64,000 nt of DNA, from NCBI GenBank assembly GCA_965195345.1, contig OZ239628.1:672001-736000 (forward strand), given 5' to 3'. The position numbers were made by a program, and so were the translations under genes. Under the pieces are notes generated by a model. It did no database searches. It was not told where the DNA came from and saw nothing but the letters and a program-made list of their open reading frames with translations. Within the stretch, counting starts at the first letter, position 1; every line of letters starts with the position of its first letter. Positions 39,905 to 55,440 of this stretch are shown piece after piece. The DNA comes from an uncultured Thiomicrospira sp. Lineage in GTDB: Bacteria; Pseudomonadota; Gammaproteobacteria; CAKMZV01.

Positions 39905-41137
39905 CTAATCAACATTCTGCCAGCGGCATGTGCCGTTCTCACCGAATAAAGACTCGGTAAGCTGATTACCAGCAAGCTCTACTTTGGCGAAGCCGTTTAA
40001 TACTCGCAAAGGAGTATCTGGATCATTAGCAGATTGGGTTTCATACCACGTAATCTGGGGTTTCCCTTTCAACTCGCTGGCATTTCCGTAGGGGAGAGAA
40101 CCATGTCCAATGCAACGGCTGCGTATTGGCACGTTATTATCCAACTGATCTGCATAGACCACCGCATTATGCTCATGCCCCCAATACCAATATACGTTTT
40201 GATAACGAAGTTTATTATCGGAATTTGAAAGATTGCTCATTACTTGTTCGTATAGCTGAGTCTTGTTTTCTCCTTTAAGCTCATAGCCGGTATGATGAGA
40301 AAGTATAATAATGCCGTTTTTCGCAGGCAGTGATTTCAACCATTTTTGTTGTGCCTCACCCAGCTCTCCATCCATATACAATTGCCACTTATCTGAATAA
40401 TACGCGCTATCCAGCCCGATGATCAACCAATTATCATTTTCTAAGGCAAAATAACTGCACTTAGCTTGTAAAGGAAATTCTTGTTCCAAAGCATAAAAAT
40501 ACGATTTTGCACCACAATACATTTCATGATTGGAATTCAGAGTAAACGCGCCTTTTGAACCCTTTGGCCAAATATCAATCAGATTATTCTTTTCCTGATC
40601 CATCGTACCAGCATAATACACATCACCCAGATGTACGGTGTAATCGACCTTTTCCTTTTGAATGACATGAGCTATTTTTTCAGCTGGAGATAAAGGAGAT
40701 TTTCTCCAAAAACCAGTTCCCCAGTCCCCAACAATACAAAACGACGCATCATTCGCAATCGGTACAGTCACTGGATTTGTGTTGAATGTTGCTTGATCGT
40801 CAATGTGTTCCAGCCAGCATGTGAGAGCCTCTAGCCAACCAAAGTCAAGTAGTTCCCATTTCCCGGATCCAAATAAAGAACCATCAGGTCTAACTAACGT
40901 ATCATAATCAGTTTTGCTTCTGGGTAAATCTTTGGCATCCTCAGGGAATAAAACAGACATTGCATGTGCAATTTCAGTATGATGCGGAGCAGAAGATTTA
41001 TTCCCCTCAATAATTTCCCAAGCTTTACGATGTGCATCTTCCAACAATTTCTTCAATGCATCTTGTTCGCTGTCACTGGCCTTACGTTTAAATTCACTAT
41101 GCGCCTTTACCAGTCTTTGTTCCAAATCATTCATCAT
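39905..41137 (-). CDS. calcineurin-like metallophosphoesterase with N-terminal extension
   Basis: GDWG, HLGDVYY, NSNHE, SHH and WGHEH metal-binding motifs. Confidence 0.8.
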   Translation of the reverse strand: MMNDLEQRLVKAHSEFKRKASDSEQDALKKLLEDAHRKAWEIIEGNKSSAPHHTEIAHAMSVLFPEDAKDLPRSKTDYDTLVRPDGSLFGSGKWELLDFGWLEALTCWLEHIDDQATFNTNPVTVPIANDASFCIVGDWGTGFWRKSPLSPAEKIAHVIQKEKVDYTVHLGDVYYAGTMDQEKNNLIDIWPKGSKGAFTLNSNHEMYCGAKSYFYALEQEFPLQAKCSYFALENDNWLIIGLDSAYYSDKWQLYMDGELGEAQQKWLKSLPAKNGIIILSHHTGYELKGENKTQLYEQVMSNLSNSDNKLRYQNVYWYWGHEHNAVVYADQLDNNVPIRSRCIGHGSLPYGNASELKGKPQITWYETQSANDPDTPLRVLNGFAKVELAGNQLTESLFGENGTCRWQNVD

Positions 41138-41554
41138 TTCTCCAATTGATCATGTATAAGTGTTATCAAGTGTTAGATTCATCCAACTAAGTATTTCTTT
41201 GATGAGCCGTTTTCTCTCGATGTTTCAGCATTATCGAACAAACATCCTTATGAGTTTGGTAACCAAATAATAAGTGGTGGTTTCTCACCCTCCACATGCC
41301 TATTTTTTACTCGCTGCTCATTTAAGTACAGACATGCTCACTTGGCCTCTTCGCTTTTATAGACCATGATAACAGCAATCTTGTTTTGTTTAATATCAGT
41401 CCGCAACTTTTTTACGGCGCTTGTTCTATATTATCCGCGCTAAAGTCACCATCACACAAAGTCTCTAAGCAATACGTCTAAATAGAGTATTATATTGTTA
41501 TTATTCCTCAAATTTCTCATAACAGACAGTAATACATACTGAACAAGTCAGCTA

Positions 41555-41719
41555 ATGACTGATTAAACTTTGACCTTAAAAAAGATCACCCATTATCTAA
41601 AAATTACTGATAAAACTGCTTATCGTTTAGCTGTAGAAGGTACATTGGCAGATTTTAAGGCTGGAGGTAGTTGGCGTTTTAAACGAGAATATATAGAATG
41701 CCGGATTGTTGAACAATAA
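41555..41719 (+). pseudogene. excisionase-type (Xis/HTH_17) DNA-binding protein with a premature stop at codon 4
   Basis: Translates as MTD*TLTLKKITHYLKITDKTAYRLAVEGTLADFKAGGSWRFKREYIECRIVEQ*, matching the family pattern LT..EVA.YL....T.YRL...G.LP.FK.GG.WRF. TAA at 41564-66. Confidence 0.8.
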
Positions 41720-41758
41720 AGCAACCAATAAAGCAACCAATAAAGCAACCAATAAAGC
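41714..41758 (+). repeat. 12-bp tandem repeat (CAATAAAGCAAC) x3.75
   Basis: Exact units start at 41714, 41726 and 41738, with a partial unit at 41750. The array ends 23 bp before the hsdM1 ATG. Confidence 0.92.
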
Positions 41759-41781
41759 GCAGCCATGAGACAAGAAAGCAG

Positions 41782-43266
41782 ATGACAACTGAAAAAATAA
41801 CGCTCTCGCAGTTAGAGCAATACTTATCAAAAGCAGCATGGATATTAAAAGGCCCTATTGATGCTTCTGATTTTAAAGTTTACATATTCCCGTTACTATT
41901 CTTTAAACGAATTTCTGATGTGTATGATGAAGAATATCGTGTAGCATTAGAAGAGTCTGATGGTGATGAAGAGTATGCAGCATTACCAGAAATGCATCGT
42001 TTTGAAATCTCTGAAGACTGTCACTGGCAAGATGTCCGTGAAACCACCACAAACGTAGGTGCTGCGATTGAGAACGCCTTGCGTGGTATAGAGCAAGCTA
42101 ACCAAGAATTCCTTTATGGCATCTTTGGTGATGCGCAGTGGAGCAACAAGAACAAACTGTCTGATGCTTTACTCATCAATTTAATAGAACACTTCTCTCA
42201 ATATACTCTGGGTAATCAAAAAGTTGACCCTGACATGCTCGGTAATGCTTACGAGTACTTAATCAAACATTTTGCTGATTTAACCAATAAAAAAGCCGGT
42301 GAATTTTATACGCCTCGTTCGGTGGTGCATTTGTTAGGGCTGATTTTAGACCCCCATGAAGGACAAACCATTTACGATCCAGCCTGCGGTACCGGTGGAA
42401 TGCTGCTTGAGTGTGTTGATCACTTAAAAGACAATAAAGAAGATTATCGAACGCTGAAAATATACGGTCAAGAAAAGAACCTAACATCCAGCTCAATTGC
42501 CCGTATGAACATGTTTTTACATGGCATTGAAGACTTTGAAATATTGCGTGGCGATACCTTACGTCATCCTGCATTTTTTGAAGCCGATGGGCTGAAAACC
42601 TTTGATTGTGTGATAGCAAACCCACCATTTTCCTTAAAAGACTGGGGTGCAGAAAATTGGGCTAATGACCCTTATGGCAGAAATATAGCCGGTGTGCCAC
42701 CAAAAGGCAATGGTGATATGGCTTGGGTGCAGCACATGGTTAAGTCCATGAATAGCACTGGACGTATGACCGTTGTATTGCCGCATGGCGCACTTTTTAG
42801 AAAGGCTGCCGAAGGAAAGATACGTAAACAGCTATTAGAACAAGACATGCTTGAAGCCGTTATCGGTTTAGGTCCTAATGTGTTCTACGGTACACAGTTA
42901 GCCGCTTGTGTCATGGTGTTCAAACAAAACAAATCAGCCGACAAAAAAGGCAAAGTATTGTTTATTGATGCATCAGATCAAATCCGCGTTGGTCGAGCAC
43001 AAAACTTCTTAGAGCCAAACCACATTCAACAAATTTATGACTGGTACCACAACTATCAAGATGTAGAAAACTACGTAAAAGTCGCTTCAATGGACGAATT
43101 AAAAGAAAACGACTTTAACTTAAATATTCCACTGTACGTTGAAAAGATCATTGAAAATAACTTGCCTTCTGTTAAAGAAGCTATGAGCGGTTTAAAACAA
43201 GCATGGCAATCAAGCCTTGATGCCGAAGAAAAATTTAAAAATATACTAAAAGGATTTATACAATGA
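41782..43266 (+). CDS. hsdM: Type I R-M methyltransferase subunit M1 (NPPF; predicted m6A)
   Basis: GEFYTP, DPACGTGG, ANPPF (near 42619), VLPHGALFR. Confidence 0.93.
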   Translation: MTTEKITLSQLEQYLSKAAWILKGPIDASDFKVYIFPLLFFKRISDVYDEEYRVALEESDGDEEYAALPEMHRFEISEDCHWQDVRETTTNVGAAIENALRGIEQANQEFLYGIFGDAQWSNKNKLSDALLINLIEHFSQYTLGNQKVDPDMLGNAYEYLIKHFADLTNKKAGEFYTPRSVVHLLGLILDPHEGQTIYDPACGTGGMLLECVDHLKDNKEDYRTLKIYGQEKNLTSSSIARMNMFLHGIEDFEILRGDTLRHPAFFEADGLKTFDCVIANPPFSLKDWGAENWANDPYGRNIAGVPPKGNGDMAWVQHMVKSMNSTGRMTVVLPHGALFRKAAEGKIRKQLLEQDMLEAVIGLGPNVFYGTQLAACVMVFKQNKSADKKGKVLFIDASDQIRVGRAQNFLEPNHIQQIYDWYHNYQDVENYVKVASMDELKENDFNLNIPLYVEKIIENNLPSVKEAMSGLKQAWQSSLDAEEKFKNILKGFIQ

Positions 43267-45593
43267 GCACATTTGACAGTACAAAACGCCCTTTACGTGA
43301 CATTATTCAAGCTATTAAAAAAGGTGAATACCAATTACCAGATTTTCAAAGGGGATGGGTTTGGGATGATGAACACGTTCGCTCACTTTTAGTAAGTATT
43401 TCTCGTTCATTTCCTATTGGTGCTGTTATGACACTTGAAACTGGCGGTGATGTGAGCTTTCAAGTTAGACCTATTGAAAATGTAAAATTAGATACGCCAG
43501 TTGAACCCGAGAAGTTAATTTTAGATGGGCAACAAAGACTTACTTCATTAACTCAAGTACTCGGGTTAACTGGTCCAGTAAAAACATTCGATCATAAAAA
43601 ATCTGAAGTAGAACGTTATTATTACATCGACATACCTAAAATCCTTGTTGGTGGAGATGTCGATGAAGCATTTTATTCTGTCGGAAAAGAAAAACGTAAA
43701 ACTTCAAATTTTGGTAGAGATATTGAATTGGACCTTTCTACTCCTGAAAAAGAAGTAGAGCAACTTCAATTTCCTTGTAACAAAATCCTCGATTACGATG
43801 ACTGGCAGGACAACTGCTACGAAGCTGATAAATTTCAAGAATTTAAAGCTTTCAAAAAACTCGTTCTTGAACCATTTAGAGATTACAACGTACCTATTAT
43901 TGCTTTGAATAAACATACATCTAAAGAGGCTGTATGCTTGGTTTTCGAAAAAGTGAATACAGGGGGAGTTTCTCTGACCGCATTTGAACTTATCACCGCA
44001 ACATTTGCGGCCGATGGTTATAAATTACGTGAAGATTGGTACGGTGATCCGCAAACCAACGCAGTCGGTCGTTTAGAAAGGCTAAAAGAAAGTAAACTGC
44101 TTAAAGGACTACAACCCACAGATTTCATTCAAGCCATTACGTTATTGCATACATACGAACTAAATAGACTAGCTAAAAGCAAAGGTAAATCTGGTAATCA
44201 ACTTCCAGGCATTAGTTGTAAACGTAAAACCATGCTTAATTTACAGTTGTCCGACTATAAAAAATGGGCTGACAAACTTGAAAATTCATTCCATCTAGCA
44301 GCTAAGTTCTTAAATAAAGAATGTTTTTTTTCTAATAGAGACTTACCTTATCGTACTCAATTAGTGCCTCTTGCAGCTATTATGACTCATTTAGGAGAAA
44401 CATGGTTAGAACCTAAAGTTAACCAGCGTTTAAGCCAATGGTTTTGGTGTGGTGTAATGGGGGAACTCTACGGAAGTGCCATTGAAAATAGATTTGCTAA
44501 TGATTTAGAAGATTTTTTAATCTGGAATACTGATGAAACAAAAATACCTCGTACCGTATTTGATGCTTCATTTCATCCAAACAGGTTGGAAACACTAAGA
44601 ACTAGAAATAGTGCAGCTTATAAAGGTTTACACATATTAACACTACGAAATGGTGCTCAAGACTTCCTTTGGAGAGCAGGGGTTCAAGAACTCGATAATA
44701 TGGGGGAGAGTTTAGATATACATCATTTATTTCCTAAAAAGTGGTGCATCAAGAAAAATATTTCTCGAAGTATTTATGACTCAGCAGTTAATAAGAGCCC
44801 TATATCTTACAAAGCAAATCGTAAAATTGGGGGAGATGCACCTTCAAAATATCTTAATAAAATTCAAAATGACGTCAATGTAGAGTTATCAAATCTAGAA
44901 ATGGATTCCATTTTGGAAACTCATTTAGTTGACCCAGGCGCTTTCAGAAGCGACGACTTCATTAAATTTATTCATCTACGGTCAATAAAGTTAACCGAGT
45001 TAATTTATACCGCTATGGGTAAATTAGATTCATTACCCGAAGATATTAGTTTATTTGCATCTGGCTCAGCTGAACAAGAAAGCCAAATATTAAATAACAA
45101 ACTCAGCCGTGGTGAATCGGAAATGTTAGAGTTTAAATCTTCCATGCGTTGGAATATCAGTGCAAACCAGCAAGATAAGAAAATGGAGGATATTATTTTA
45201 AAAAACATCGCGGCTTTTAGTAATGGTTACGGCGGAACATTGATGATCGGTATAAATGATGATGGAGATGTTTTGGGTTTAAATGCAGATTATTCTACGT
45301 TAAAAGAACCTAATAAAGACCATTTTGAACTTCACCTACGTAATCTGGTTAATTCAAACCTTGGTAAAGATTTCGCTACAGCAAATTTAAATATTAGCTT
45401 TCCGCTTAAAGACGATACTGAATTTTGTCAAATTGAGATTAAACGAGGTAATGAACCTAAGTACCTTGAAATTCCTGATCAAAATGGTCAGAAAATAGAA
45501 AAATTTTATGTGAGGAGTGGTAACTCTTCACAAGAATTATCAATTAATGAAGCCGCAAAATATATTAACTTGCGTTTTAAGGGGGCACGATGA
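43263..45593 (+). CDS. GmrSD-like DUF262 + HNH-like nuclease fused to a C-terminal Schlafen/AlbA_2 domain
   Basis: DUF262 motifs LPDFQRGWVW, LDGQQRLT and FEKVNTGG. HNH-like DIHHLFP...N...N. From about aa 617: GESEMLEFKSS, AAFSNGYGGTLMIGINDDG and FYVRSGNSS (AlbA_2). ATGA overlaps with both flanking hsdM genes. Confidence 0.8.
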   Translation: MSTFDSTKRPLRDIIQAIKKGEYQLPDFQRGWVWDDEHVRSLLVSISRSFPIGAVMTLETGGDVSFQVRPIENVKLDTPVEPEKLILDGQQRLTSLTQVLGLTGPVKTFDHKKSEVERYYYIDIPKILVGGDVDEAFYSVGKEKRKTSNFGRDIELDLSTPEKEVEQLQFPCNKILDYDDWQDNCYEADKFQEFKAFKKLVLEPFRDYNVPIIALNKHTSKEAVCLVFEKVNTGGVSLTAFELITATFAADGYKLREDWYGDPQTNAVGRLERLKESKLLKGLQPTDFIQAITLLHTYELNRLAKSKGKSGNQLPGISCKRKTMLNLQLSDYKKWADKLENSFHLAAKFLNKECFFSNRDLPYRTQLVPLAAIMTHLGETWLEPKVNQRLSQWFWCGVMGELYGSAIENRFANDLEDFLIWNTDETKIPRTVFDASFHPNRLETLRTRNSAAYKGLHILTLRNGAQDFLWRAGVQELDNMGESLDIHHLFPKKWCIKKNISRSIYDSAVNKSPISYKANRKIGGDAPSKYLNKIQNDVNVELSNLEMDSILETHLVDPGAFRSDDFIKFIHLRSIKLTELIYTAMGKLDSLPEDISLFASGSAEQESQILNNKLSRGESEMLEFKSSMRWNISANQQDKKMEDIILKNIAAFSNGYGGTLMIGINDDGDVLGLNADYSTLKEPNKDHFELHLRNLVNSNLGKDFATANLNISFPLKDDTEFCQIEIKRGNEPKYLEIPDQNGQKIEKFYVRSGNSSQELSINEAAKYINLRFKGAR

Positions 45594-47065
45594 CCCAACC
45601 TTCTTTTGATCAAAAAGCCTTAGAAAAATATCTATGGGAAGCCGCTGTTATCCTTAGGGGCACCATAGATGCGGGGGATTACAAGCAATACATTTTTCCG
45701 CTCATGTTCTTTAAACGGCTCTCTGATGTGTACGATGAAGAGTTTAACAATGCCTTGCGCGATAGTGATGAGGATTTAGAATACGCCGCGTTTACTGAAA
45801 ATCATCACTTTCAAATACCGGACGGTGCGCACTGGAAAGATGTGCGTGAAACCACTACCAACATTGGTTTGGCACTACAAAACGCGATGCGTGCCATTGA
45901 AAAGGCAAACCCAGACACCCTTGAAGGTATTTTTGGTGATGCTAGTTGGACCAATAAAGACCGCCTAACTGACGCCATGCTCACCAACTTAATTGAGCAT
46001 TATTCACAGCACACACTTGATTTAAAAAATGTGCCAGATGACAAGTTAGGTAATGCTTACGAGTACTTAATCAAAGAGTTTGCTGACGATAGTGGCCACA
46101 CCGCCGCAGAGTTTTACACCAACCGTACTGTGGTTAAATTAATGACCATGATAATGGACCCACAACCGGGTGAGTCCGTGTATGACCCTACTTGTGGCTC
46201 GGGTGGTTTATTACTTAACTGTGCTTTGCATCTTAAAGATGAAGGCAAAGAATACCGCACGCTTAAATTATACGGACAAGAGATTAACCTATTAACCTCA
46301 GCCATTGCCCGTATGAACATGTTTATGCACGGCATTGAAGAGTTCGATATTGTCCGTGGTAATACCTTGAGTAATCCAGCTTTGCTTGAAAACGATGAGC
46401 TGAAAAAATTCAACGTGATTCTCGCCAACCCGCCTTATTCAATTAAATCATGGGATAGAAAGAGCTTTGAAAGCGATCCATATGGCCGTAATGTATGGGG
46501 CACACCACCGCAAGGTTGTGCGGATTATGCCTTTCAACAACATATTCAAAAAAGTCTTAATTTAGATAATGGCCGTTCAATTTCATTATGGCCACACGGC
46601 ATTTTGTTCCGTGATGCAGAAGCCGAAATACGTAAAAAAATGATTGAACAAGACCAAGTTGAATGTGTCATTGGTCTTGGTCCAAATCTATTTTATAACT
46701 CGCCTATGGAAGCATGTCTGTTAATTACTAAAACAAGCAAAGACGAAAATAAAAAAGGCAAAGTACTGATCATTAATGCGGTGAAAGAAGTTAAGCAAGA
46801 TAAGAATATCGCCTACCTTGAACAAAGCCATATTAAACGTATTTACAATGCTTATAAAAATTATGCTGATGAAGATGGTTTTAGCAAAGTCGTTACCATA
46901 GACGAAGTTCTCAAGTTTAAAGCCAGCTTAAACATGGCGCTTTATGTTAGTAATGTTGATAACAGTAAAACACAAATACCATTAGATGATGCACTCGCTA
47001 ACTGGCAAACATCATCAAAGCAGTTATCAAGTAGTATGGAACAGTTATTTAAGGAATTAGGTTAA
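45590..47065 (+). CDS. hsdM: Type I R-M methyltransferase subunit M2 (NPPY; predicted m4C)
   Basis: AEFYT, DPTCGSGG, ANPPY (near 46427), WPHGILFR. Clear paralogue of M1. Confidence 0.92.
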   Translation: MTQPSFDQKALEKYLWEAAVILRGTIDAGDYKQYIFPLMFFKRLSDVYDEEFNNALRDSDEDLEYAAFTENHHFQIPDGAHWKDVRETTTNIGLALQNAMRAIEKANPDTLEGIFGDASWTNKDRLTDAMLTNLIEHYSQHTLDLKNVPDDKLGNAYEYLIKEFADDSGHTAAEFYTNRTVVKLMTMIMDPQPGESVYDPTCGSGGLLLNCALHLKDEGKEYRTLKLYGQEINLLTSAIARMNMFMHGIEEFDIVRGNTLSNPALLENDELKKFNVILANPPYSIKSWDRKSFESDPYGRNVWGTPPQGCADYAFQQHIQKSLNLDNGRSISLWPHGILFRDAEAEIRKKMIEQDQVECVIGLGPNLFYNSPMEACLLITKTSKDENKKGKVLIINAVKEVKQDKNIAYLEQSHIKRIYNAYKNYADEDGFSKVVTIDEVLKFKASLNMALYVSNVDNSKTQIPLDDALANWQTSSKQLSSSMEQLFKELG

Positions 47066-48223
47066 ATGTCAAAAGTTAAGACAGATTTAAAAATTGACCT
47101 AAATAATTTGAATAAATCCAGCTGGAAAACTTACCGCTTTGATGAAATTGCTCAAAACATTTCAGAGCGAGTTGATCCTAATAATACCGATTTAAAAGTA
47201 TATATTGGCCTTGAACATATTGACTCTGAATCCTTACACATAAAGCGACACGGCACCTCTGATGATGTAAATGGTCAGAAATTAAAGTTTTATAAAGGTG
47301 ATGTTATTTTTGGTCGTCGCCGTGCGTATCAGCGTAAAGCAGGAATTGCTACTTGGGATGGTTTTTGTTCAGCACACGCTTTAGTGCTTAGGGCTAATCC
47401 TGATGTAATTGACCCAGAGTTATTTCCATTTTTTATGCATTCAGATTTGTTCATGAATCGTGCTATTGACATCTCAGTGGGTTCCTTATCACCAACGATT
47501 AATTGGGGGACACTCAAGCATCAAGAATTTTTGCTTCCACCGAAGGAAATTCAGGCAAACGTCATAAAGTTATTATCTACGATGGACTGCGTTATTCAAA
47601 AAAATAAAAATACTATATCGGCATTGAAGACTGCAAAGAAATCAAAGTTAAAATCATATTTTTCAAATGAAATTGAATATAAACAAATCAGAGATATTGG
47701 TGAAATTGTCACAGGTTCAACGCCTTCAACTAAAAAAGAAGAATATTGGGGGGAAGATTTTCAGTTTGTAACACCTGCGGATATTTCAGATGATACTTTT
47801 TCTGTGTTTGATACAGAAAGGAAGATTACAAGCGAAGGCTTATCTGTTTCGAGAGAAATTCCTGCCGATAGTTTAATGGTAGTTTGCATTGCATCTATTG
47901 GAAAATTAGCAATATCACAAGAAAAGTGTGGAACAAATCAACAAATCAACACAATTATTCCTAATGATGGAATAGAGGTTAAATATTTATACGAGGTGTT
48001 AGAACTTTTCAACGAGTTAATTACATCTAAAGCAGCAAAATCAGTTGTTCCAATTTTAAACAAAGGTGATTTTGGATTAATAAAAATACCAATTCTTAAT
48101 CCTGATTTAAGAAGTCAGTTATTAAATGAATCTGAATATTTTGATAATGCTATTCAAAACTCGACAGTAAATATAAAAAATAGCGAACAACTACATATAA
48201 GTATTATAAATAAGGTGTTTTAG
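47066..48223 (+). CDS. hsdS: Type I R-M specificity subunit
   Basis: Two TRDs separated by a conserved helical spacer (LLPPKEIQ...). GDVIFG motif in TRD1 and GSTPST motif in TRD2. Confidence 0.92.
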   Translation: MSKVKTDLKIDLNNLNKSSWKTYRFDEIAQNISERVDPNNTDLKVYIGLEHIDSESLHIKRHGTSDDVNGQKLKFYKGDVIFGRRRAYQRKAGIATWDGFCSAHALVLRANPDVIDPELFPFFMHSDLFMNRAIDISVGSLSPTINWGTLKHQEFLLPPKEIQANVIKLLSTMDCVIQKNKNTISALKTAKKSKLKSYFSNEIEYKQIRDIGEIVTGSTPSTKKEEYWGEDFQFVTPADISDDTFSVFDTERKITSEGLSVSREIPADSLMVVCIASIGKLAISQEKCGTNQQINTIIPNDGIEVKYLYEVLELFNELITSKAAKSVVPILNKGDFGLIKIPILNPDLRSQLLNESEYFDNAIQNSTVNIKNSEQLHISIINKVF

Positions 48224-48225
48224 GT

Positions 48226-51207
48226 ATGGGATTTACTGAATTAAATAGTGTGGAGCACTACATCATCCATCAAATGAGTGGCGTTAACTTAAACGCTTCT
48301 CAAGAGAGTAACCAAATTAGCGAACCTCATGGCCAATACGGTTTGCAATGGCAATTCCAATCGGCTGAGCAGATTGGGCAGCTTGACCGTGGTGTTAACG
48401 AGGTTTTAGTTGAGTCTGTATTGGTTAGGGCATTAATTCGTCTTAACCCTGAGATTGAAGCTAATCCTAATTTAGCAGATGAAGTAATACATAAACTCCG
48501 TGCTATTCTAATTTCGGTCAATCAAGTGGGCTTAGTGATGGCCAATGAAGAATTTTTTGCTTGGATGACAGGCGAAAAAACCATGCCGTTTGGTGAAAAT
48601 AACCGCCATGTGCCTGTAAAGCTAATCGACTTTGATGATTTAACCCGCAACGATTATGTCGTGACGAATCAGTTTCGCATTCATCACAAAGAAACAAAAA
48701 TACCTGATGTAGTATTAATGATTAATGGTATTCCGGTGGTGGTCGGTGAAGCTAAAACACCAATTCGCCCATCAGTAACGTGGTTAGACGGCGCGCATGA
48801 AATACACAACATTTATGAAAATGCTGTACCACAATTGTTTGTGCCTAATATTTTATCGTTTGCTACCGAAGGCAAAGAATTGTTTTATGGTGCCATAAAA
48901 TGCCCGTTAGAGTTTTGGGCACCTTGGCGTGTTGAGGATGATCAACTAAGCCGCTCTGTTGGTTTATCGAGTGTTGGCGCAGAGCTGACCAATTTATTAA
49001 GCCCAGTGCGCTTGCTTGATATTATGCGTAATTTCTCATTGTTTACAACGAATAAAAAGAAACACCGCACTAAGATAATACCTCGTTTTCAGCAATACGA
49101 AGGGGCTAATAAAATTGTTGAGCGTGTGATTGACGGTAGGATTAAAAAAGGTTTAATTTGGCATTTTCAAGGCTCAGGTAAATCATTGTTAATGGTGTTT
49201 GCTGCACAAAAACTTCGCCGTGCTGCACAGCTTAAAAGCCCAACCGTCATTGTGTTGGTCGATAGAACCGATTTAGATACCCAAATTAGCAGCACATTTA
49301 ATGCCGCCGATATCGCTAATGTGGAGTCAACCGATAGCATTAAAGAATTACAACAAATGCTTGAGCGTGATACCCGTAAGATTATTATCTCAATGATTCA
49401 CAAATTCCGTGATGCTAAACCTAATATGAATGAACGTGAGAATATCATTGTATTAGTGGACGAGGCGCATCGCACCCAAGAAGGTGATTTAGGTCGTCAA
49501 ATGCGTGCCGCTTTACCCAATGCTTTCTTATTTGGTTTAACTGGGACGCCCGTAAACAAAGCGGATAAAAATACTTTTTGGGCATTTGGTGCCGAAGAAG
49601 ATAAAGGCGGTTATATGTCACGTTACACCTTCCATGACTCCATTCGTGATGATGCCACATTGCCATTACACTTTGAGCCACGTTTAGTTGATGTGCATGT
49701 GGATACCCAAGCTCTTGACCAAGCATTTGCTGAATTTAAAGAAAGCGCGGCATTAAACGATGAAGAAGCCGATGCGCTCAATAAAAAATCAGCCAGTATG
49801 GCAACCTTTTTAAAATCACCTGAACGTATTGCCAAAATAGCGAAAGACATAGCTGAACACTTTAAAAACAAATTAGCACCACAGGGCTTTAAGGCTATGA
49901 TAGTCACGCCAGACAGGCATGCCTGTGTGCAGTATAAAGAAGCGTTAGATAACTACTTCTCAACAGAGGCCAGTAAAGTGGTTATTTCAACCACCGCGAA
50001 TGATGACTTTGAATTTAAGGAAAAGTGGGGAATAGACAAGAGCCAACAAGAAAAAATTGTTGATGAGTTTAACGCTGTGGATTCTGACCTTAAATTTATT
50101 ATTGTTACTGCTAAATTGTTAACGGGTTTTGATGCACCGATTTGTCAAACAATATACTTAGACAAATCATTAAAAGATCATACCTTGTTGCAGGCAATAT
50201 GTCGTACCAACCGTTTATATCCGAATAAGGCGTTTGGCTGTATTGTTGATTACTTTGGTGTTTTTGACGATGCCACAAAAGCATTAGCGTTTGATGAAGA
50301 GAGCATCAAGCAGGTTATTACTAACTTAAGTGAATTACGCTCTCGTTTACCACAAGCAATGGCTGACTCATTAAAACACTTTGATGGCGTAGATAGAACG
50401 CTTGATGGGTTTGAGGGCTTAGAAGCTGCACAAAATGCTATTGGTACTGACGACAAAAAAGATGCCTTTGCAAAAGATTTCAAGTACCTGTCAAAGCTAT
50501 GGGAATCATTATCACCAGATAATATTTTAGACCTATATAACCAAGACTATAAATGGTTAGCGCAAGTATTTGAATCAGTAAAACCAGCTTCAGATAATGT
50601 AGGTAAGATGCTGTGGTTAGCACTTGGTGCACAAACCACTCAGCTAATACATGAAAACATTCATGTAGGTGAAGTACATACCTTGGATGAGTTTGTACTT
50701 GATGCGGATGTGATTGAAAATATATTCAACAATCCAGAGCCAAAAAAGATCAAGCAACTCGAAAAAGACTTAATCCAACGCTTTAAAAATCACGGTGGCA
50801 GTGCCGAATTTAAAAAGCTCAGTAAACGTTTAGAAGAACTGCGCGATAAAGCAGAAAAAGGTTTAATTACCTCAATAGAATTCGTTAAAGAGCTGTGCGC
50901 AATTGCCAAAGAGACGATATCCGCCGAAAAAGAATTACAGCAAGAAGCACAAGAAAAATCACCTAAAGCCGCATTGACAGAGCTGTTTTTAGAGTTAAAG
51001 ACTGAGAAAACACCAGCTGTAGTTGAGCGTATTGTTACCGACATTGATGCCATTGTTCGAGTTGTGAAATTCCCTGGTTGGCAAAACACCACAGGCGGAG
51101 AACGCGAAGTACAAAAATCACTGCGCAAAGCATTACTTAAATACAAATTACATACTGATCAAATTTTGTTTGATAGAGCTTATGCCTATATCAAAGAGTA
51201 TTATTAA
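48226..51207 (+). CDS. hsdR: Type I R-M restriction subunit
   Basis: PD...EAK nuclease motif (IPDVV...GEAK), WHFQGSGKS Walker A, DEAH, TGTP, LLTGFD, QAICRTNR. Confidence 0.95.
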   Translation: MGFTELNSVEHYIIHQMSGVNLNASQESNQISEPHGQYGLQWQFQSAEQIGQLDRGVNEVLVESVLVRALIRLNPEIEANPNLADEVIHKLRAILISVNQVGLVMANEEFFAWMTGEKTMPFGENNRHVPVKLIDFDDLTRNDYVVTNQFRIHHKETKIPDVVLMINGIPVVVGEAKTPIRPSVTWLDGAHEIHNIYENAVPQLFVPNILSFATEGKELFYGAIKCPLEFWAPWRVEDDQLSRSVGLSSVGAELTNLLSPVRLLDIMRNFSLFTTNKKKHRTKIIPRFQQYEGANKIVERVIDGRIKKGLIWHFQGSGKSLLMVFAAQKLRRAAQLKSPTVIVLVDRTDLDTQISSTFNAADIANVESTDSIKELQQMLERDTRKIIISMIHKFRDAKPNMNERENIIVLVDEAHRTQEGDLGRQMRAALPNAFLFGLTGTPVNKADKNTFWAFGAEEDKGGYMSRYTFHDSIRDDATLPLHFEPRLVDVHVDTQALDQAFAEFKESAALNDEEADALNKKSASMATFLKSPERIAKIAKDIAEHFKNKLAPQGFKAMIVTPDRHACVQYKEALDNYFSTEASKVVISTTANDDFEFKEKWGIDKSQQEKIVDEFNAVDSDLKFIIVTAKLLTGFDAPICQTIYLDKSLKDHTLLQAICRTNRLYPNKAFGCIVDYFGVFDDATKALAFDEESIKQVITNLSELRSRLPQAMADSLKHFDGVDRTLDGFEGLEAAQNAIGTDDKKDAFAKDFKYLSKLWESLSPDNILDLYNQDYKWLAQVFESVKPASDNVGKMLWLALGAQTTQLIHENIHVGEVHTLDEFVLDADVIENIFNNPEPKKIKQLEKDLIQRFKNHGGSAEFKKLSKRLEELRDKAEKGLITSIEFVKELCAIAKETISAEKELQQEAQEKSPKAALTELFLELKTEKTPAVVERIVTDIDAIVRVVKFPGWQNTTGGEREVQKSLRKALLKYKLHTDQILFDRAYAYIKEYY

Positions 51208-51442
51208 GGTGTTCTGGATAGTTAGATTTCCTTGTTAATTACCTTATTTTAAAATCATTCATCCTATGCTTAGTAAGTCTAGTATCTACAGAGTTTAGGG
51301 GACTATTTTTTGAAAAGCATCGCTTTAAATCACTGTAATTTTTTTATCGCTGTATTTTGACGATTATTAGTAATCTTGATTTTGTTTGAGCATTGCCAAT
51401 ATTTGACTGTTTGAATGTCTTTATTTACGCATAGAAAACTAA

Positions 51443-51637
51443 TCTATTCCTCAAAAACCGCATCATGAGATGGATGATATTTCCGATAATCCTAAAAGGT
51501 CTCAATGAAAAGAAGATACAGCCAAGAACAAATAATCAAGGCAATCAAACGCCATGAATCAGGGTTAAAATTTGAAAAAGCAGCGTGAAATGATTAAACC
51601 GCATTCAAATACTGGTGCTTATTTGGGGGGCAATACA
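51443..51637 (+). mobile_element. internally deleted IS3-family remnant (about 195 bp)
   Basis: The mini-ORF 51505-51588, MKRRYSQEQIIKAIKRHESGLKFEKAA*, resembles an IS3 OrfA N-terminus. The right end TGGTGCTTATTTGGGGGGCAATACA ends in CA, and its reverse complement aligns imperfectly with the left end TCTATTCCTCAAAAACCGCATCA. Confidence 0.65.
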
Positions 51638-51775
51638 CCCATCCAGTAACAGACTACTTAAAATCAAATTTTGAAAAAAAATAGCTCATAAAGTTCAGCA
51701 TCAACAGTCAAAAAAACGCACAGTGGTTTATCGACCTGTCTGCATACTATTGATATGAAATTTCTTTATTTATTA

Positions 51776-52864
51776 CTACTGTGACACAATTTTCAAGAGA
51801 TGAGTGAATGATAATATTGCTGAGGTTCTACCACTTGCAGGGCGTAGTTCATCTATGATGCCGGCTTGCTTTAATTCACGAATATACTGCGCAGCACGTT
51901 GCCGTTGAATTCTTAGTATTTTGTGTGCATCAGTTGCTCGAAAAATCGGTGTATTGAATAACATATCTAATAAGAATATTGATTGATCCGAGCGAATCAC
52001 ATCTAGCATCTCCTTCTTTTTATAATCATAAAGCTCAATGATTTTTCTAACTAGTATCAGATTTTTTTCAGATTGTTCAACTACAGCGTTTAGAAAAAAA
52101 TCAACCCACCCTAGCCAATCATTTTGACGAGAAATATTTTCTAGTTTTTGATAGTAAGTATCTCGATTAGATTCGAAATATTCACTGAGATAGAAGGACG
52201 GACTGACAACGCTACCCTTTCTAGCAAGAAACAACGGAATCAAGATGCGTCCAATTCGGCCATTACCATCATCGAATGGGTGAATTAACTCAAATTGTGC
52301 ATGTATGAGTGCTGCCTGAATAATTGGGTCTAGAGTATCGTCGTTCAAGTTAACGAAACCAATAAATTGCTCTAAAAGATCCTGCAAAATATAAGGTGCA
52401 GGAGGTACGTAAGTGGCTTGCTCAATCGTACATCCTCGCGGTCCAATCCAGTTTTGGGTCGCACGGAATCGCCCTGGATTTTTATCTTCTCCACGAACTC
52501 CTTGCATGAGGTTTTCATGCATTTGTCTTAGCATGTGGAGTGTCAGTGGCTTGTCTTTTAACTCAGATCCAGCTATTCTGAGAGTGCTCCTATAATTTAT
52601 GATTTCTTGTATATCGGCACTCTTTTCAGGATCAAATTTTTCTCCAGCCTGTTGCTGATACACCTCGTTCGCAGTGGCGATAGTCCCTTCTATCCTTGAT
52701 GATAGTTCTGCTTCCTTCATTATTAACGGTGAAAGTAGTACATCTGGATTTACAAGGCTTTCTAATAGACCATCATAACGGGATATACAAGCATTTGCCC
52801 TACCGACCAAGGCGATGCTATTGCTTAAGTCCAACTTTTTTGGCGGGAAGTAGTTGAGGTTCAT
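51776..52864 (-). CDS. Fic family protein (N-terminal inhibitory motif, C-terminal HTH)
   Basis: HPFDDGNGRIGR catalytic motif and SSRIEGT autoinhibitory motif. Start moved from 52927 to 52864 (MNLNYFPP) because promoter and operator elements occupy 52883-52941. Confidence 0.9.
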   Translation of the reverse strand: MNLNYFPPKKLDLSNSIALVGRANACISRYDGLLESLVNPDVLLSPLIMKEAELSSRIEGTIATANEVYQQQAGEKFDPEKSADIQEIINYRSTLRIAGSELKDKPLTLHMLRQMHENLMQGVRGEDKNPGRFRATQNWIGPRGCTIEQATYVPPAPYILQDLLEQFIGFVNLNDDTLDPIIQAALIHAQFELIHPFDDGNGRIGRILIPLFLARKGSVVSPSFYLSEYFESNRDTYYQKLENISRQNDWLGWVDFFLNAVVEQSEKNLILVRKIIELYDYKKKEMLDVIRSDQSIFLLDMLFNTPIFRATDAHKILRIQRQRAAQYIRELKQAGIIDELRPASGRTSAILSFTHLLKIVSQ

Positions 52865-52881
52865 TTCTGTATGATAGAAGA

Positions 52882-52941
52882 TACACAAAGTGGTTTGTGT
52901 AACATGAATTGACATTATAACATACACAAAAGACTTTGTGT
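52882..52941 (-). promoter_or_regulatory. Fic promoter: extended -10 element between two palindromic operators
   Basis: ACACAAA-N4-TTTGTGT at 52883-52900 and again at 52924-52941. Minus-strand TGtTATAAT at 52922-52914 lies between them. Confidence 0.65.
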
Positions 52942-53698: not shown

Positions 53699-54235
53699 CT
53701 ATTGGTAGGTAACTTGCACGCCAATTTCTTCTAACATTGTTGGAAGGGTTATGCAACGTATTCTCTCATGTGAGCATATTTTTGGCATTTTCAAAAACAT
53801 TTTACTGTCATTATCCTCTGATGATTCTTCTGTCACCACAGAGACATCAGACCCTTTCAGCTCCAATGCATATAGGATCAATTGAAAATCTGCACCATCA
53901 ATTGCCGCTTCCCTCTCTTTCTCGTACTCCTCAGAGGCTAATTCTTTTTGGTTTTTAATGCGCTTATTGCACCAATTATTATCAATACGTCTGTGGGTTT
54001 TTCCCTTTTCAACTTCGACCTTTTTTTGAGTTTTAACGCTTTTTAAAAAACCCAGTTTTTCAATTACCAGACCTTTTGATACACTGCCAATCTCTTCTTT
54101 TACAGAATCCAATAAAATTATTTGTTTTTCCGAAAAACTTGATTTGATTTTATTGAACAAGATATCTTCGTCATCAAAAGGTTGATAATAACGCACAAAA
54201 GATAATAAAGAAGACGTATCTATTACAAATTTCAA
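53699..54235 (-). CDS. PIN-domain protein (DUF4411-like), putative toxin
   Basis: IDTSSLL, V.EEI, ADFQLILYA, VVTEE, KMPKIC. Its TTG start overlaps the upstream TGA stop (TTGA). Confidence 0.8.
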   Translation of the reverse strand: MKFVIDTSSLLSFVRYYQPFDDEDILFNKIKSSFSEKQIILLDSVKEEIGSVSKGLVIEKLGFLKSVKTQKKVEVEKGKTHRRIDNNWCNKRIKNQKELASEEYEKEREAAIDGADFQLILYALELKGSDVSVVTEESSEDNDSKMFLKMPKICSHERIRCITLPTMLEEIGVQVTYQ

Positions 54236-55440
54236 AAGTCATCCCCGTAAAGAAATGTATCTATATATCCCTTCTTGACTTGCTTAATATTTGGCTTAAA
54301 GCGTTTAATGATATCCATTTCTTCAATAGTCCCTTCAAAAAAAGCATAGTGATATACTCTTTTTTCTAAATTTGAATGAATTGGCTTTGGTTGTGAGAAA
54401 AATTGGATTTTCCCTTGTCTTGTGTCCTCTTCCCTTTTTTCTGCATCTCTGAGCATTTTCTCGTTATGTTCATCTTTTAAAGACAGTCTAAGACTTTCGT
54501 ATGCCCTCCAAGTAATTTTTTGTTCATTGAGGAAGTGTGCATAGATAGCTAATCTGCTGATATGAATATCCTTTGATAATTTTTTTATTTCAGCATTATG
54601 TATATCAGGTTGATCATCAAATTTTTTATACATTTCTTCAGTGGTTGTTTTCTCATTTAAAATAAATGCAAATGCAAATGCATTACACCAATTCTCTATA
54701 TCTTTCAAGCTTTCTTCGCGGGCTTTTTTAAATGGAGATTGATCAATCTCTTCAGAGTCAAGAAGATAATGACCAAGTTCATGAGCTAATGTAAATATCT
54801 CTCTTTTAAATGCATTTTGTTGACGTTTAATGGCAATAGTATTTGGTTTTAAAAACACTCCCTCCCAAGATATTGCTTTGTCAGGTTTTGTGTGGTTTCT
54901 GTCAATAAATTCATAGACTATGATTCCTAAATTAGCAAATGTTTGAATCATTAAGTTCAAATATTTTCGATCATCTCTACAATTATTTAACTTTGTGAAA
55001 TCAACTTGATCTCTAATTTTTTGCGCAACTATTTGAGGGTTGGTTCGCACATCGTAAGTTTTTAATTGCCGTTTTGGAAGTTTATATCCCGAAAGTTTTA
55101 CAACAGCGCTTAGTCCTTGCGAAGAAGATTCAATTTCGCTTATTTTCATACGATCGCGAAACTCTAATGGACTATTAAATGATTCTTTACGAAAGAATAA
55201 AGATGTGTCTCCTGATCTTGGAATATCTTGAGGATTAGTGTAGAAAGATAACCCTTTTTTGAAAAAAGCTTTATCAAGTGCCTTCAATGCATTTAACAGA
55301 ATGTTTGAACAAAAAACATTAGATTCGCTGAATTCTCTCTTGCGTTTTGCATTGATTTTTTCCAATATATCATGCTTATTAACATCGTACAATTCCATCA
55401 GATGTTCAAGCCTTTTATAGTTTATTTCTATTGTGCTCAT
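54232..55440 (-). CDS. ImmA/IrrE family Zn metallopeptidase with N-terminal HTH-like region
   Basis: REIFTLAHELGH (HExxH) and IENWCNAFA. Confidence 0.85.
   Translation of the reverse strand: MSTIEINYKRLEHLMELYDVNKHDILEKINAKRKREFSESNVFCSNILLNALKALDKAFFKKGLSFYTNPQDIPRSGDTSLFFRKESFNSPLEFRDRMKISEIESSSQGLSAVVKLSGYKLPKRQLKTYDVRTNPQIVAQKIRDQVDFTKLNNCRDDRKYLNLMIQTFANLGIIVYEFIDRNHTKPDKAISWEGVFLKPNTIAIKRQQNAFKREIFTLAHELGHYLLDSEEIDQSPFKKAREESLKDIENWCNAFAFAFILNEKTTTEEMYKKFDDQPDIHNAEIKKLSKDIHISRLAIYAHFLNEQKITWRAYESLRLSLKDEHNEKMLRDAEKREEDTRQGKIQFFSQPKPIHSNLEKRVYHYAFFEGTIEEMDIIKRFKPNIKQVKKGYIDTFLYGDDF

What the first reader, a model, noticed from the sequence alone, without database searches (positions are those of the whole stretch)
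43263..45593. GmrSD-like/Schlafen fusion nuclease embedded between the two methyltransferase genes of a Type I R-M operon
Seen in sequence: a 776-aa gene with DUF262 NTPase motifs (QR, DGQQR, FxxxN), an HNH-like DIHHLFP...N...N region, and a C-terminal Schlafen/AlbA_2 domain with an intact ExxxxEFK acidic motif (GESEMLEFK). It sits between hsdM1 and hsdM2 with ATGA stop-start overlaps on both sides, so it is translationally coupled. Established knowledge: DUF262/HNH proteins (GmrSD, SspE) are modification-dependent DNases, Schlafen domains are tRNA/rRNA endonucleases, and the anticodon nuclease PrrC is embedded in the EcoprrI Type I operon as a back-up against anti-restriction phages. Inference: this may be a layered system. 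HsdR would cut unmodified DNA, the DUF262-HNH part would target hypermodified DNA, and the Schlafen domain would trigger abortive infection when the R-M complex is inhibited. I do not recognise this architecture as described.
Basis: partly seen in the sequence, partly recalled or inferred. Interest (0 to 1): 0.9.

Follow-up and report, generated by a model that had tools for sequence, protein, structure and literature searches.

The report
Schlafen-tailed restriction nuclease inside R-M operon
An intact anti-phage gene that joins a BrxU/GmrSD-like DNA nuclease to a Schlafen-type RNase sits between the two methylase genes of a known two-methylase (m6A/m4C) type I restriction system; each of these features is already in print, so this is a tidy new example, not a new kind of system.

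Summary
ORF 43263-45593 encodes 776 aa with a DUF262/GmrSD_N domain and a C-terminal Schlafen/AlbA_2 domain whose Ex4ExK motif is intact. ATGA overlaps join it to hsdM1 and hsdM2.

No Pfam model finds the HNH part. A confident model of residues 250-600 matches BrxU and shows a beta-beta-alpha finger with invariant H487/H488, N510 and N519.

The two hsdM genes mark the published PacII-type m6A/m4C type I system: M1 has AGEF/NPPF, M2 has AAEF/NPPY, and the order is M1-M2-S-R. Extra ORFs between M1 and M2 were reported there in 6 of 10 systems.

DUF262-Schlafen fusions are a published defence class (EcoSlfn7). GmrSD-like genes embedded in type I operons are published too (TgvAB, Mme2I).

The M1-X-M2 cassette recurs in 4 other loci. 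The fusion also occurs outside R-M in 2 of 7 independent contexts. Other PacII-type systems have the slot empty or carrying other cargo.

Best reading: an autonomous two-nuclease defence gene carried as cargo, complementary to the R-M system. A PrrC-like guard role is unsupported.

This scan met a similar case on other DNA (e1-3206695).

Verdict: new member of known kinds, modest interest.

The parts
41570..41719 (+). Small HTH_17 (excisionase-type helix-turn-helix) ORF of 49 aa with a TTG start, just upstream of hsdM1. It may be a regulator. Whether it belongs to the operon was not tested.
   Evidence: Translation; Pfam HTH_17 E 1.9e-07.
41782..43266 (+). hsdM1, the m6A-type methyltransferase subunit of a PacII-type type I system (motifs AGEF and NPPF).
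   Evidence: Pfam N6_Mtase and HsdM_N. Motifs visible in the alignment. Its best PDB sequence match is 7VRU chain A (557 bits, against 503 for chain B).
43263..45593 (+). The finding: a 776-aa DUF262 / BrxU-like His-Me finger / Schlafen fusion protein (P0001).
43293..44006 (+). DUF262/GmrSD_N NTPase-type domain (residues 11-248) with QR, DGQQR and FxxxN motifs.
   Evidence: Pfam E 2.8e-31; the motif residues are invariant in 58 sequences.
44010..45062 (+). Helical linker plus BrxU-like C-terminal nuclease region (residues 250-600). The beta-beta-alpha finger covers residues 484-522 (bases 44712-44828) and carries H487, H488, N510 and N519.
   Evidence: AF2 sub-model with pLDDT 92.3. Foldseek finds BrxU 7p9k/7p9m at E 2.4e-05, TM(query) 0.56-0.59, with weak SspE C-terminal domain and Cas9 HNH matches. 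Residues invariant. No Pfam hit.
45114..45539 (+). Schlafen/AlbA_2 domain (residues 618-759). The Ex4ExK motif E618..E623-F-K625 is encoded at 45114-45137.
   Evidence: Pfam E 1.6e-16. Foldseek matches to the SAMD9 tRNase domain, DIP2311 and SLFN13. Motif kept in 25 of 25 fusions.
45590..47065 (+). hsdM2, the m4C-type methyltransferase subunit (motifs AAEF and NPPY).
   Evidence: Its best PDB sequence match is 7VRU chain B (603 bits, against 430 for chain A).
47066..48223 (+). hsdS specificity subunit.
   Evidence: Pfam Methylase_S; matches 7VRU chain C at E 5.6e-63.
48226..51207 (+). hsdR restriction/translocase subunit.
   Evidence: Pfam HSDR_N, SWI2_SNF2 and ResIII; NCBIfam hsdR E 1e-163.

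Best explanation
The gene encodes a self-contained, single-polypeptide anti-phage enzyme with two nuclease modules.

The N-terminal DUF262 domain is an NTP-binding sensor and switch, as in BrxU, GmrSD and SspE. It controls a BrxU-like His-Me finger DNA nuclease. A C-terminal Schlafen RNase is a second effector that most likely cuts tRNA.

The gene rides as cargo in the M1-M2 slot of a PacII-type type I R-M system. In that system M1 makes m6A, M2 makes m4C, S sets specificity and R cuts unmethylated DNA. The gene is co-transcribed and probably translationally coupled with the R-M genes. The host therefore gets R-M against unmodified DNA plus a second, independent barrier.

Shown here: the domains, the motifs and their conservation, the gene order, the recurrence of the cassette, and the turnover of the cargo.

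Inferred from characterised relatives: NTP dependence, DNA cleavage, tRNA cleavage, and which phages are hit.
For: Domains and motifs. Both catalytic motif sets are invariant across the clade (H487/H488/N510/N519 in 58 of 58 sequences; Ex4ExK in 25 of 25 fusions). This argues that both nucleases are under selection.

Structure: the full model matches BrxU over 653 columns (E 4e-08) and SAMD9 tRNase/SLFN13 at the C-terminus. The sub-model (pLDDT 92.3) matches BrxU with TM(query) 0.56-0.59.

Modular C-terminus: in a tree of the core, the 25 Schlafen fusions plus one NERD-tailed protein sit on one side of a branch with support 100. The NERD variant is nested as sister to a Schlafen fusion. So the tail behaves as an exchangeable effector.

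Autonomy:
- The fusion is found between housekeeping genes (NTP transferase, RuvX) and LRR genes in L081/L082, and next to a divergent RNase_H-like ORF in L083.
- About 615-aa relatives without the tail sit in other type I families, in DISARM-like clusters and in PLD-SNF2 clusters, or with none of these nearby (of 160 loci, 58 had type I M plus S or R, 14 had M only, 5 had DrmA/B, 7 had PLD-SNF2, 68 had none).

Cargo slot: of 9 M1/M2 systems in 401 genomes of the class, 5 have something in the slot and 4 have nothing. The occupants are this gene, a 23%-identical DUF262 gene, DUF4062 plus an AlbA_2-HATPase_c_4-Fic_C gene, a 164-aa ORF with no Pfam hit, and about 1 kb without a long ORF.

Strain variation: contigs of run X1 break exactly at the two junctions. 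One lower-depth contig (12.3, against 21.3 over the gene) joins 43250 to 45586.

Literature: EcoSlfn7, a DUF262-Slfn fusion, lowers T7 plating 538-fold as a single gene (PMC13056530, section 6). RorSlfn5 cleaves tRNA on a phage trigger (same paper, abstract and discussion). BrxU and TgvB motif mutants lose defence (PMC11411939, section 9).
Against: - No Pfam DUF1524/HNH match, so the DNA-nuclease module rests on a predicted structure and conserved residues.
- The DUF262 core of the full-length model is of low confidence (pLDDT below 50 for residues 23-99).
- 5 of 7 independent contexts of the fusion clade are the M1-M2 slot, and the M1-X-M2 cassette is conserved across distant hosts. This is also what a functional link would give.
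- EcoSlfn7 acts best on T7 (PMC13056530, section 6). From general knowledge T7 DNA is unmodified, so a simple modified-DNA trigger may be wrong for this class.
- The sequence relationship to EcoSlfn7 could not be tested.
- Nothing here shows expression or activity.
Confidence: 0.55

Rival explanations
1. Sensor-plus-one-effector model. The whole DUF262/BrxU-like core works only as the phage sensor and NTP switch, and the Schlafen RNase is the sole effector. Infection would then be stopped by tRNA cleavage (translation shut-off), not by DNA restriction.
For: The published pSlfn model treats fused domains as sensors and Slfn as the effector (PMC13056530, sections 6 and 12). The C-terminal module is swapped for another nuclease (NERD) in a nested relative, as expected if the tail is the effector. 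No HMM recognises the HNH part.
Against: H487, H488, N510 and N519 are invariant in 58 of 58 sequences, including the 32 relatives that have no tail at all. Those relatives need an effector of their own. The region superposes on the BrxU nuclease domain.
Confidence: 0.17
2. R-M-coupled model. The protein binds M1M2S or M1M2S-R, or reads the m4C/m6A marks they write. It is released or activated when the R-M system is blocked or when unmarked DNA appears.
For: It sits inside the operon with ATGA overlaps on both sides. The M1-X-M2 cassette is conserved in 4 other loci from distant hosts (L001, L002, L003, L106). The tail-less family is very often next to hsdM-type methylases (72 of 160 loci) and is often placed between hsdS and hsdM. 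Precedents recalled from general knowledge: PrrC with EcoprrI; SspE stimulated by phosphorothioate DNA.
Against: The fusion occurs in solo contexts (L081/L082, L083). The nearest M1/M2 pair carries a non-orthologous DUF262 gene. In L003 and L106 extra genes separate X from M1 or M2. PacII-type systems work without slot cargo (4 of 9 here; PMC5100572, section 11). TgvAB homologues alone are 17 times more common than the embedded form (PMC11411939, section 10). There is no PrrC-type domain.
Confidence: 0.12
3. Plain type IV restriction enzyme with an extra nucleic-acid-binding tail. The AlbA_2 domain binds DNA or RNA and does not cleave.
For: Among the best fold matches for the tail is the SAMD9 AlbA_2 domain solved with DNA (7ksp). 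AlbA_2 domains also occur in proteins annotated as regulators, for example the AlbA_2-HATPase_c_4-Fic_C gene in L163.
Against: The catalytic Ex4ExK triad is kept in 25 of 25 fusions. The same fold matches the SAMD9 tRNase domain and SLFN13. A nuclease (NERD) replaces the tail in a nested relative.
Confidence: 0.08

Closest known systems
Prokaryotic Schlafen defence proteins with DUF262 (pSlfn; tested member EcoSlfn7 of E. coli UC4224; Perez Taboada et al., Nat Microbiol 2026, PMC13056530)
   Same: The domain composition is the same: DUF262 fused to a Schlafen nuclease with Ex4(E/D)xK. It is a single gene lying among defence genes. DUF262 fusions make up 1.8% of the 5,930 pSlfns in that survey.
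   Different: The sequence relationship to EcoSlfn7 could not be tested, because the supplementary tables are closed and a blastn of an enterobacterial relative against E. coli genomes found nothing. The passages I read do not mention a position inside a type I operon (the paper has 0 occurrences of 'type I restriction'). The mechanism of the DUF262 class was not studied there.
BrxU / GmrSD-family type IV restriction enzymes (PDB 7P9K/7P9M; also SspE)
   Same: DUF262 with QR, DGQQR and FxxxN, followed by a helical linker and a beta-beta-alpha His-Me finger. BrxU is the best structural match for both models. PADLOC HEC-05 (BrxU-type) matches the N-terminus at E 7.7e-19.
   Different: Only 14-15% identity in the structural alignment. 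The Pfam DUF1524 model does not match. It has an extra Schlafen domain of about 170 aa. Its substrate is unknown.
PacII-type non-canonical m6A/m4C type I R-M systems (Morgan et al. 2016, PMC5100572; structure 7VRU, PMC9613975)
   Same: For the surrounding operon: two M paralogues 54% identical (published range 45-55%), M1 with AGEF/NPPF, M2 with AAEF/NPPY, order M1-M2-S-R with M2 next to S, and an extra ORF between M1 and M2 (published in 6 of 10 systems).
   Different: The recognition sequence and the methylation itself are not known for this strain. The 2016 text I could read does not name the interspersed ORFs.
TgvAB in the V. cholerae VPI-2 type I operon (PMC11411939) and the Mrr and BrxU genes in the Mme2I operon (PMC12455610)
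   Same: GmrSD-family genes embedded within a type I R-M operon. They are interpreted as complementary defence against modified and unmodified DNA, and also occur outside R-M clusters.
   Different: TgvAB is a two-protein system with a Pfam-recognisable DUF1524 and no Schlafen domain. The host operons have a single hsdM.
PrrC anticodon nuclease in the EcoprrI type I operon (recalled; named as the first tRNA-cleaving defence in PMC13056530, discussion)
   Same: A probable tRNA-cutting module encoded inside a type I R-M operon.
   Different: The fold and family are unrelated. No evidence of masking by the R-M complex, and the fusion occurs without R-M.

Membership tests
GmrSD/BrxU family (DUF262 + DUF1524) | N-terminal DUF262 with QR, DGQQR and FxxxN motifs | tested here: met
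   Pfam GmrSD_N E 2.8e-31. Q29 R30, D88-R92 and F228-N232 are invariant.
GmrSD/BrxU family (DUF262 + DUF1524) | C-terminal domain recognised by the DUF1524/GmrSD_C sequence model | tested here: not met
   No further Pfam family even at E <= 10. None among the precomputed domains of the 120 listed homologues. The PDB profile search matches only the N-terminus.
GmrSD/BrxU family (DUF262 + DUF1524) | His-Me finger H...N...H/N on a beta-beta-alpha fold: His at the end of strand 1, Asn in the loop, Asn in the helix (as defined in PMC11411939, section 9) | tested here: met
   This rests on a predicted structure only. Strand 484-488 ends in H487/H488, N510 lies before strand 511-515, and N519 lies in helix 516-522. 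All are invariant. BrxU is the top fold match.
GmrSD/BrxU family (DUF262 + DUF1524) | NTP-dependent cleavage of modified DNA | not testable with these tools
   Needs biochemistry.
Prokaryotic Schlafen (pSlfn), DUF262 class | Schlafen/AlbA_2 nuclease domain with Ex4(E/D)xK | tested here: met
   Pfam SLFN_AlbA_2 E 1.6e-16. E618-x4-E623-x-K625 is kept in 25 of 25 fusions. Fold matches to the SAMD9 tRNase domain and SLFN13.
Prokaryotic Schlafen (pSlfn), DUF262 class | Fusion to DUF262 in one polypeptide | tested here: met
Prokaryotic Schlafen (pSlfn), DUF262 class | Sequence relationship to the tested member EcoSlfn7 | not tested
   No accession appears in the main text and the supplements are closed. 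The indirect blastn attempt found nothing.
Prokaryotic Schlafen (pSlfn), DUF262 class | Phage-triggered tRNA cleavage and defence | not testable with these tools
   Needs phage assays and RNA end sequencing.
PacII-type m6A/m4C type I R-M (M1M2S + R) | Two M paralogues 45-55% identical, M1 with AGEF/NPPF and M2 with AAEF/NPPY | tested here: met
   54% identity; the motifs are read from the alignment. Definitions come from PMC5100572 (abstract, sections 11-12) and PMC9613975 (passages).
PacII-type m6A/m4C type I R-M (M1M2S + R) | Gene order M1, M2, S, R with M2 next to S | tested here: met
PacII-type m6A/m4C type I R-M (M1M2S + R) | Each subunit is closest to its PacII counterpart | tested here: met
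   M1: 7VRU_A 557 bits against B 503. M2: 7VRU_B 603 bits against A 430. S: 7VRU_C E 5.6e-63. 7VRU is PacII_M1M2S.
PacII-type m6A/m4C type I R-M (M1M2S + R) | m4C on one strand and m6A on the other at a bipartite site | not testable with these tools
   Needs SMRT or nanopore methylome data.
PrrC-type R-M guard | PrrC architecture (NTPase head plus anticodon-nuclease tail of the PrrC family) | tested here: not met
   Only GmrSD_N and SLFN_AlbA_2 are found. There is no NCBIfam hit.
PrrC-type R-M guard | Kept latent by binding the R-M complex and released by an anti-restriction factor | not testable with these tools
   Solo occurrences and cargo turnover argue against an obligate link.

The most novel reading that the evidence does not exclude
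The DUF262/BrxU-like family to which this gene belongs is not mere cargo. It is a reader of host methylation, as SspE is of phosphorothioate. Its repeated placement inside methylation-based systems would then reflect a functional hand-over. Those placements are between hsdS and hsdM, between M1 and M2, and after DISARM genes. In this reading the enzyme uses the m6A/m4C pattern written by its neighbours to tell self from non-self. In the Schlafen-tailed clade it would add tRNA cleavage as a fail-safe when restriction is blocked.
Probability: 0.1. Interest if true: 0.65.

Novelty: new member of a known kind. Interest (0 to 1): 0.3.

Why it matters
The locus gives a clean natural example in which three published ideas meet: a heterodimeric m6A/m4C type I methylase, embedded type IV-like nucleases, and bacterial Schlafen effectors.

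It also shows that the M1-M2 junction of PacII-type systems is a swap-prone cargo slot. DUF262 and Schlafen genes recur in that slot.

The DUF262-Schlafen class has one tested member and no mechanism. This clade has both nuclease motif sets conserved and a natural Schlafen-to-NERD tail swap. That makes it a good subject for asking which module senses and which kills.

It does not open a new category.

Tried and rejected
- **HNH by sequence models.** Pfam at E <= 10 and NCBIfam gave no HNH/DUF1524 hit and no NCBIfam family for the protein. A PDB profile search matched only the DUF262 N-terminus.
- **PADLOC.** The hits (PDC-M55C, HEC-05, NsnA, SspE, Orf5) all cover only the N-terminal domain.
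- **Relation to EcoSlfn7.** No accession appears in the main text and the supplements are closed. A blastn of the Enterobacter relative L017 against 5,426 E. coli genomes found no match. The relation is left untested.
- **Promoter and terminator scan of 41100-52000.** The counts do not exceed shuffles (34 against 36.4; 6 against 7.5), so the scan says nothing about transcription units.
- **Island borders.** The same-genus genome (G260) and the same-family genome (G062) lack the operon with these queries. They are also too diverged and rearranged for borders to be drawn.
- **tRNA genes.** There are none in the window.
- **Expression.** No RNA holder is listed for this stretch.
- **Other strains.** Runs with the same species label hold next to none of its words. 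This is not proof of absence.
- **Complex prediction.** Complex prediction was not used, because the report does not claim that the protein binds M1, M2 or S.
- **Literature on a different two-hsdM meaning.** A search for 'two hsdM/hsdM1/hsdM2' returned only unrelated uses.
- **Literature on the exact combination.** I did not find a DUF262-Schlafen gene in the M1-M2 slot in print with the searches. Two sources I could not see may already show it: the supplementary tables of PMC13056530, and the figure and supplement of PMC5100572 that depict the interspersed ORFs.
- **Tree.** The careful tree did not finish, so the quick IQ-TREE result is what I report.

Full report
**1. What is there**

The ORF at 43263-45593 on the + strand is open and encodes 776 residues.

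- Pfam places a GmrSD_N/DUF262 domain at residues 11-248 (E 2.8e-31) and a SLFN_AlbA_2 domain at residues 618-759 (E 1.6e-16).
- Nothing else matches, even at E <= 10. NCBIfam has no model for the protein.
- PADLOC models (PDC-M55C, the BrxU-type HEC-05, NsnA, SspE) match only the N-terminal domain.
- The start overlaps the stop of the upstream gene as ATGA, and the stop overlaps the start of the downstream gene in the same way.
- The five genes from 41782 to 51207 are packed with overlaps or gaps of 0-2 bases.
- A consensus promoter and terminator scan is uninformative.

**2. The middle of the protein**

- The full-length AlphaFold model (mean pLDDT 77.6) is poor in residues 23-99 and good from about residue 250 onward.
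- Foldseek against the PDB puts BrxU (7p9k, 7p9m) first, aligned over about 653 columns (E 4e-08). For the tail it then finds DIP2311, the SAMD9 tRNase/AlbA_2 domain, SLFN13 and other Schlafens.
- A separate model of residues 250-600 has pLDDT 92.3. It again finds BrxU first (E 2.4e-05, TM normalised to the query 0.56-0.59), followed weakly by the SspE C-terminal domain and Cas9 HNH domains.
- In the model, strand 484-488 ends in H487-H488, N510 precedes strand 511-515, and N519 lies in helix 516-522. This is the His-Me finger layout described for TgvB and BrxU (PMC11411939, section 9).
- All four residues are invariant in a 58-sequence alignment, as are the DUF262 motifs QR, DGQQR and FxxxN.
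- The Schlafen motif is E618-x4-E623-x-K625. It is kept in 25 of 25 tail-bearing sequences in that alignment.

**3. The two methylase genes are a known feature**

- M1 (41782-43266) and M2 (45590-47065) are 54% identical. M1 carries AGEF and NPPF; M2 carries AAEF and NPPY.
- This is the definition of the non-canonical type I systems of Morgan et al. 2016 (PMC5100572, abstract and sections 11-12 read). There an NPPF subunit M1 makes m6A and an NPPY subunit M2 makes m4C in a heterodimeric M1M2S enzyme. The gene order is M1, M2, S, R. The AGEF/AAEF distinction is from PMC9613975 (passages read).
- Against PDB sequences, M1 is closest to chain A of 7VRU and M2 to chain B. S matches chain C at E 5.6e-63. 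7VRU is PacII_M1M2S.
[quoted passage not shown] The text I could read does not say what those ORFs are.

**4. Relatives of the protein**

A search of 5.8 billion proteins returned 8,000 scored hits. Among the 120 listed:

- 41 carry both DUF262 and AlbA_2. These are about 775 aa and 62-85% identical, apart from one 592-aa fragment.
- One carries a NERD nuclease domain instead of the Schlafen tail (P0041, confirmed).
- One is a fragment with AlbA_2 only.
- 77 are proteins of about 600-715 aa with DUF262 only, 57-61% identical over the first 76% of the query.

A quick maximum-likelihood tree of the core puts the 25 Schlafen fusions plus the NERD variant on one side of a branch with support 100. 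The NERD variant is sister to a Schlafen fusion (the careful search did not finish). This fits one gain of the tail in this subfamily and a later tail swap.

More distant DUF262 proteins with a Schlafen-like C-terminus also turn up on plasmids of Haloquadratum and Sinorhizobium.

**5. Genomic contexts**

Scans of species-representative genomes and of metagenomes gave 160 loci.

*The fusion clade.* It appears in L001 (Geopsychrobacter MAG), L002 (Leucothrix pacifica), L003 (Akkermansiaceae MAG), L106, L081, L082 and L083.

- L001, L002, L003 and L106 all have an M1 orthologue (75-87% identical) upstream and an M2 orthologue (70-78%) downstream.
- In L003 a Fic gene sits between the fusion gene and M2.
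- In L106 two ORFs without Pfam hits flank the fusion gene, and an AAA_21 gene plus two ORFs without Pfam hits lie between S and R.
- L081 and L082 are the same population (99.9% identical). There the gene lies between an NTP-transferase gene and RuvX on one side and BspA-type LRR genes on the other, with no hsdM.
- In L083 the upstream neighbour is a divergent RNase_H-like ORF.
- Counting the window, 5 of 7 independent contexts are the M1-M2 slot and 2 are not.

*The tail-less family.* It is often inside or beside other type I operons, typically hsdR-(Fic)-hsdS-X-hsdM with an EcoEI-type HsdR. It also lies beside DISARM-like and PLD-SNF2 clusters.

With my tblastn queries, the 160 loci gave these counts:

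| Neighbour found | Loci |
|---|---|
| M plus S or R | 58 |
| M only | 14 |
| Fic | 17 |
| N6_N4 methylase | 8 |
| PLD-SNF2 | 7 |
| MmeI-like methylase | 6 |
| DrmA/B | 5 |
| None of these | 68 |

The categories overlap. Many contigs are short, so the counts are lower bounds.

**6. The slot**

Searching M1 in 401 genomes of the same class found 9 analysable M1/M2 pairs, including the window's own. In a tenth genome the two matches lay on separate contigs.

- **Slot filled, 5 systems**:
  - the window's own system, with the fusion gene;
  - G221, whose M1 and M2 are 89% and 88% identical to the window's, with a DUF262 gene only 23% identical;
  - G088, with a DUF4062 gene plus an AlbA_2-HATPase_c_4-Fic_C gene, so a Schlafen gene of another architecture occupies the same slot;
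  - G149, with a 164-aa ORF without a Pfam hit;
  - G050, with about 1 kb without a long ORF.
- **Slot empty, 4 systems:** gaps of about 260 bases or less.

Contigs of the best-holding public run (X1) break exactly at 43211-43240 and 45586-45615. Depth is 35.4 over M1 and 21.3 over the fusion gene. One contig at depth 12.3 joins 43250 to 45586, with 30 letters on its shorter side. What lies between the two sides of the joint is not known. This suggests a second variant in that sample that shares M1 and M2 but not this gene. A further joint across 46825-48206 suggests that the variant also has a different hsdS.

The same-genus and same-family reference genomes lack the operon with these queries.

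**7. What is already in print**

- **DUF262-Schlafen fusions.** Perez Taboada et al. (PMC13056530; abstract, section 6 and discussion read) surveyed 5,930 prokaryotic Schlafens, of which 1.8% are fused to DUF262. The DUF262-Slfn protein EcoSlfn7 lowers plating of several phages, with T7 down 538-fold. For another class, they showed that the Schlafen domain cleaves tRNA when a fused sensor meets a phage protein.
- **TgvAB.** Vizzarro et al. (PMC11411939) showed that two GmrSD-family genes embedded in the V. cholerae VPI-2 type I operon restrict T-even phages. They also found that tgvAB homologues occur 17 times more often alone than embedded.
- **Mme2I.** The type I operon of Marinomonas carries Mrr and a BrxU-type gene (PMC12455610, passages read).
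- **This scan.** I had found the key paper independently.

**8. Interpretation**

The most economical reading is an autonomous, single-gene, two-nuclease defence enzyme carried in a swap-prone slot of a PacII-type R-M operon.

- Conservation of both catalytic motif sets argues that both nucleases work.
- The tail swap argues that the C-terminus is an effector module.
- The solo contexts, the replaced cargo beside near-identical M1/M2, and the empty slots argue against an obligate tie to the R-M proteins.

What remains open:
- the trigger: modified DNA as for BrxU and TgvAB, or something else, given that EcoSlfn7 acts on T7;
- which nuclease stops the phage;
- whether the strong tendency of this DUF262 family to sit inside methylation-based systems is more than co-selection in defence islands.

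The PrrC-like guard idea is kept as a rival at low odds.

**9. Verdict**

The claim of an undescribed architecture is not supported. I file this as a new member of known kinds: a DUF262-class prokaryotic Schlafen and BrxU-like enzyme inside a PacII-type type I system.

I did not find the exact combination in the papers I could search. Closed supplements may contain it.

The host's nearest named relatives by TrpRS are Thiomicrospira-like marine Gammaproteobacteria at about 62% identity.

Noticed in passing
window 41714-41758: A perfect 12-base tandem repeat (CAATAAAGCAAC, 3.8 copies) lies between the small HTH_17 ORF and the hsdM1 start. It overlaps the stop of the HTH ORF. It could be a phase-variable or regulatory tract for the R-M operon.
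   Followed up: partly
window 41570-41719: A 49-aa HTH_17 (excisionase-type) ORF with a TTG start sits directly upstream of hsdM1. It may be a controller of the operon. I did not check whether it is conserved in L002, L003 or L106.
   Followed up: partly
window 51776-52927 (-): A Fic_N/Fic gene converges on the end of hsdR. Fic genes recur with this DUF262 family: 17 of 160 loci have one, L003 has one inside the M1-M2 slot, and many EcoEI-type operons read hsdR-Fic-hsdS-X-hsdM.
   Followed up: partly
window 53699-55440 (-): A DUF4411 gene overlaps a 402-aa Peptidase_M78 (ImmA/IrrE-like) gene by 4 bases. The pair looks like a two-gene toxin-antitoxin or defence module, so the R-M operon lies in a small defence island. 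A 64%-identical stretch exists elsewhere in the same-genus genome.
   Followed up: no
window 46825-48206, in run X1: A lower-depth contig (9.6) joins across the end of hsdM2 and almost all of hsdS. This suggests a co-occurring variant with a different specificity gene.
   Followed up: no
L163 (G088:C1) 8570-10640 (-): In another PacII-type system the M1-M2 slot holds a DUF4062 gene and an AlbA_2-HATPase_c_4-Fic-like_C gene. Schlafen-domain genes of two different architectures therefore occupy the same slot in different genomes.
   Followed up: partly
P0041 (metagenome protein, 800 aa): A relative 78% identical over the core has a NERD nuclease domain (residues 603-693) in place of the Schlafen tail. 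It is nested within the Schlafen-fusion clade, so this is a natural effector swap.
   Followed up: partly
L061, L063, L065 (Calothrix and Nostoc), about 99-9981: Tail-less relatives follow a DISARM-like cluster made of an MmeI-like methylase, a 1,140-aa helicase, an MZB/DUF1998 protein and a PLD protein. This points to an association of the family with methylation-based systems other than type I.
   Followed up: no
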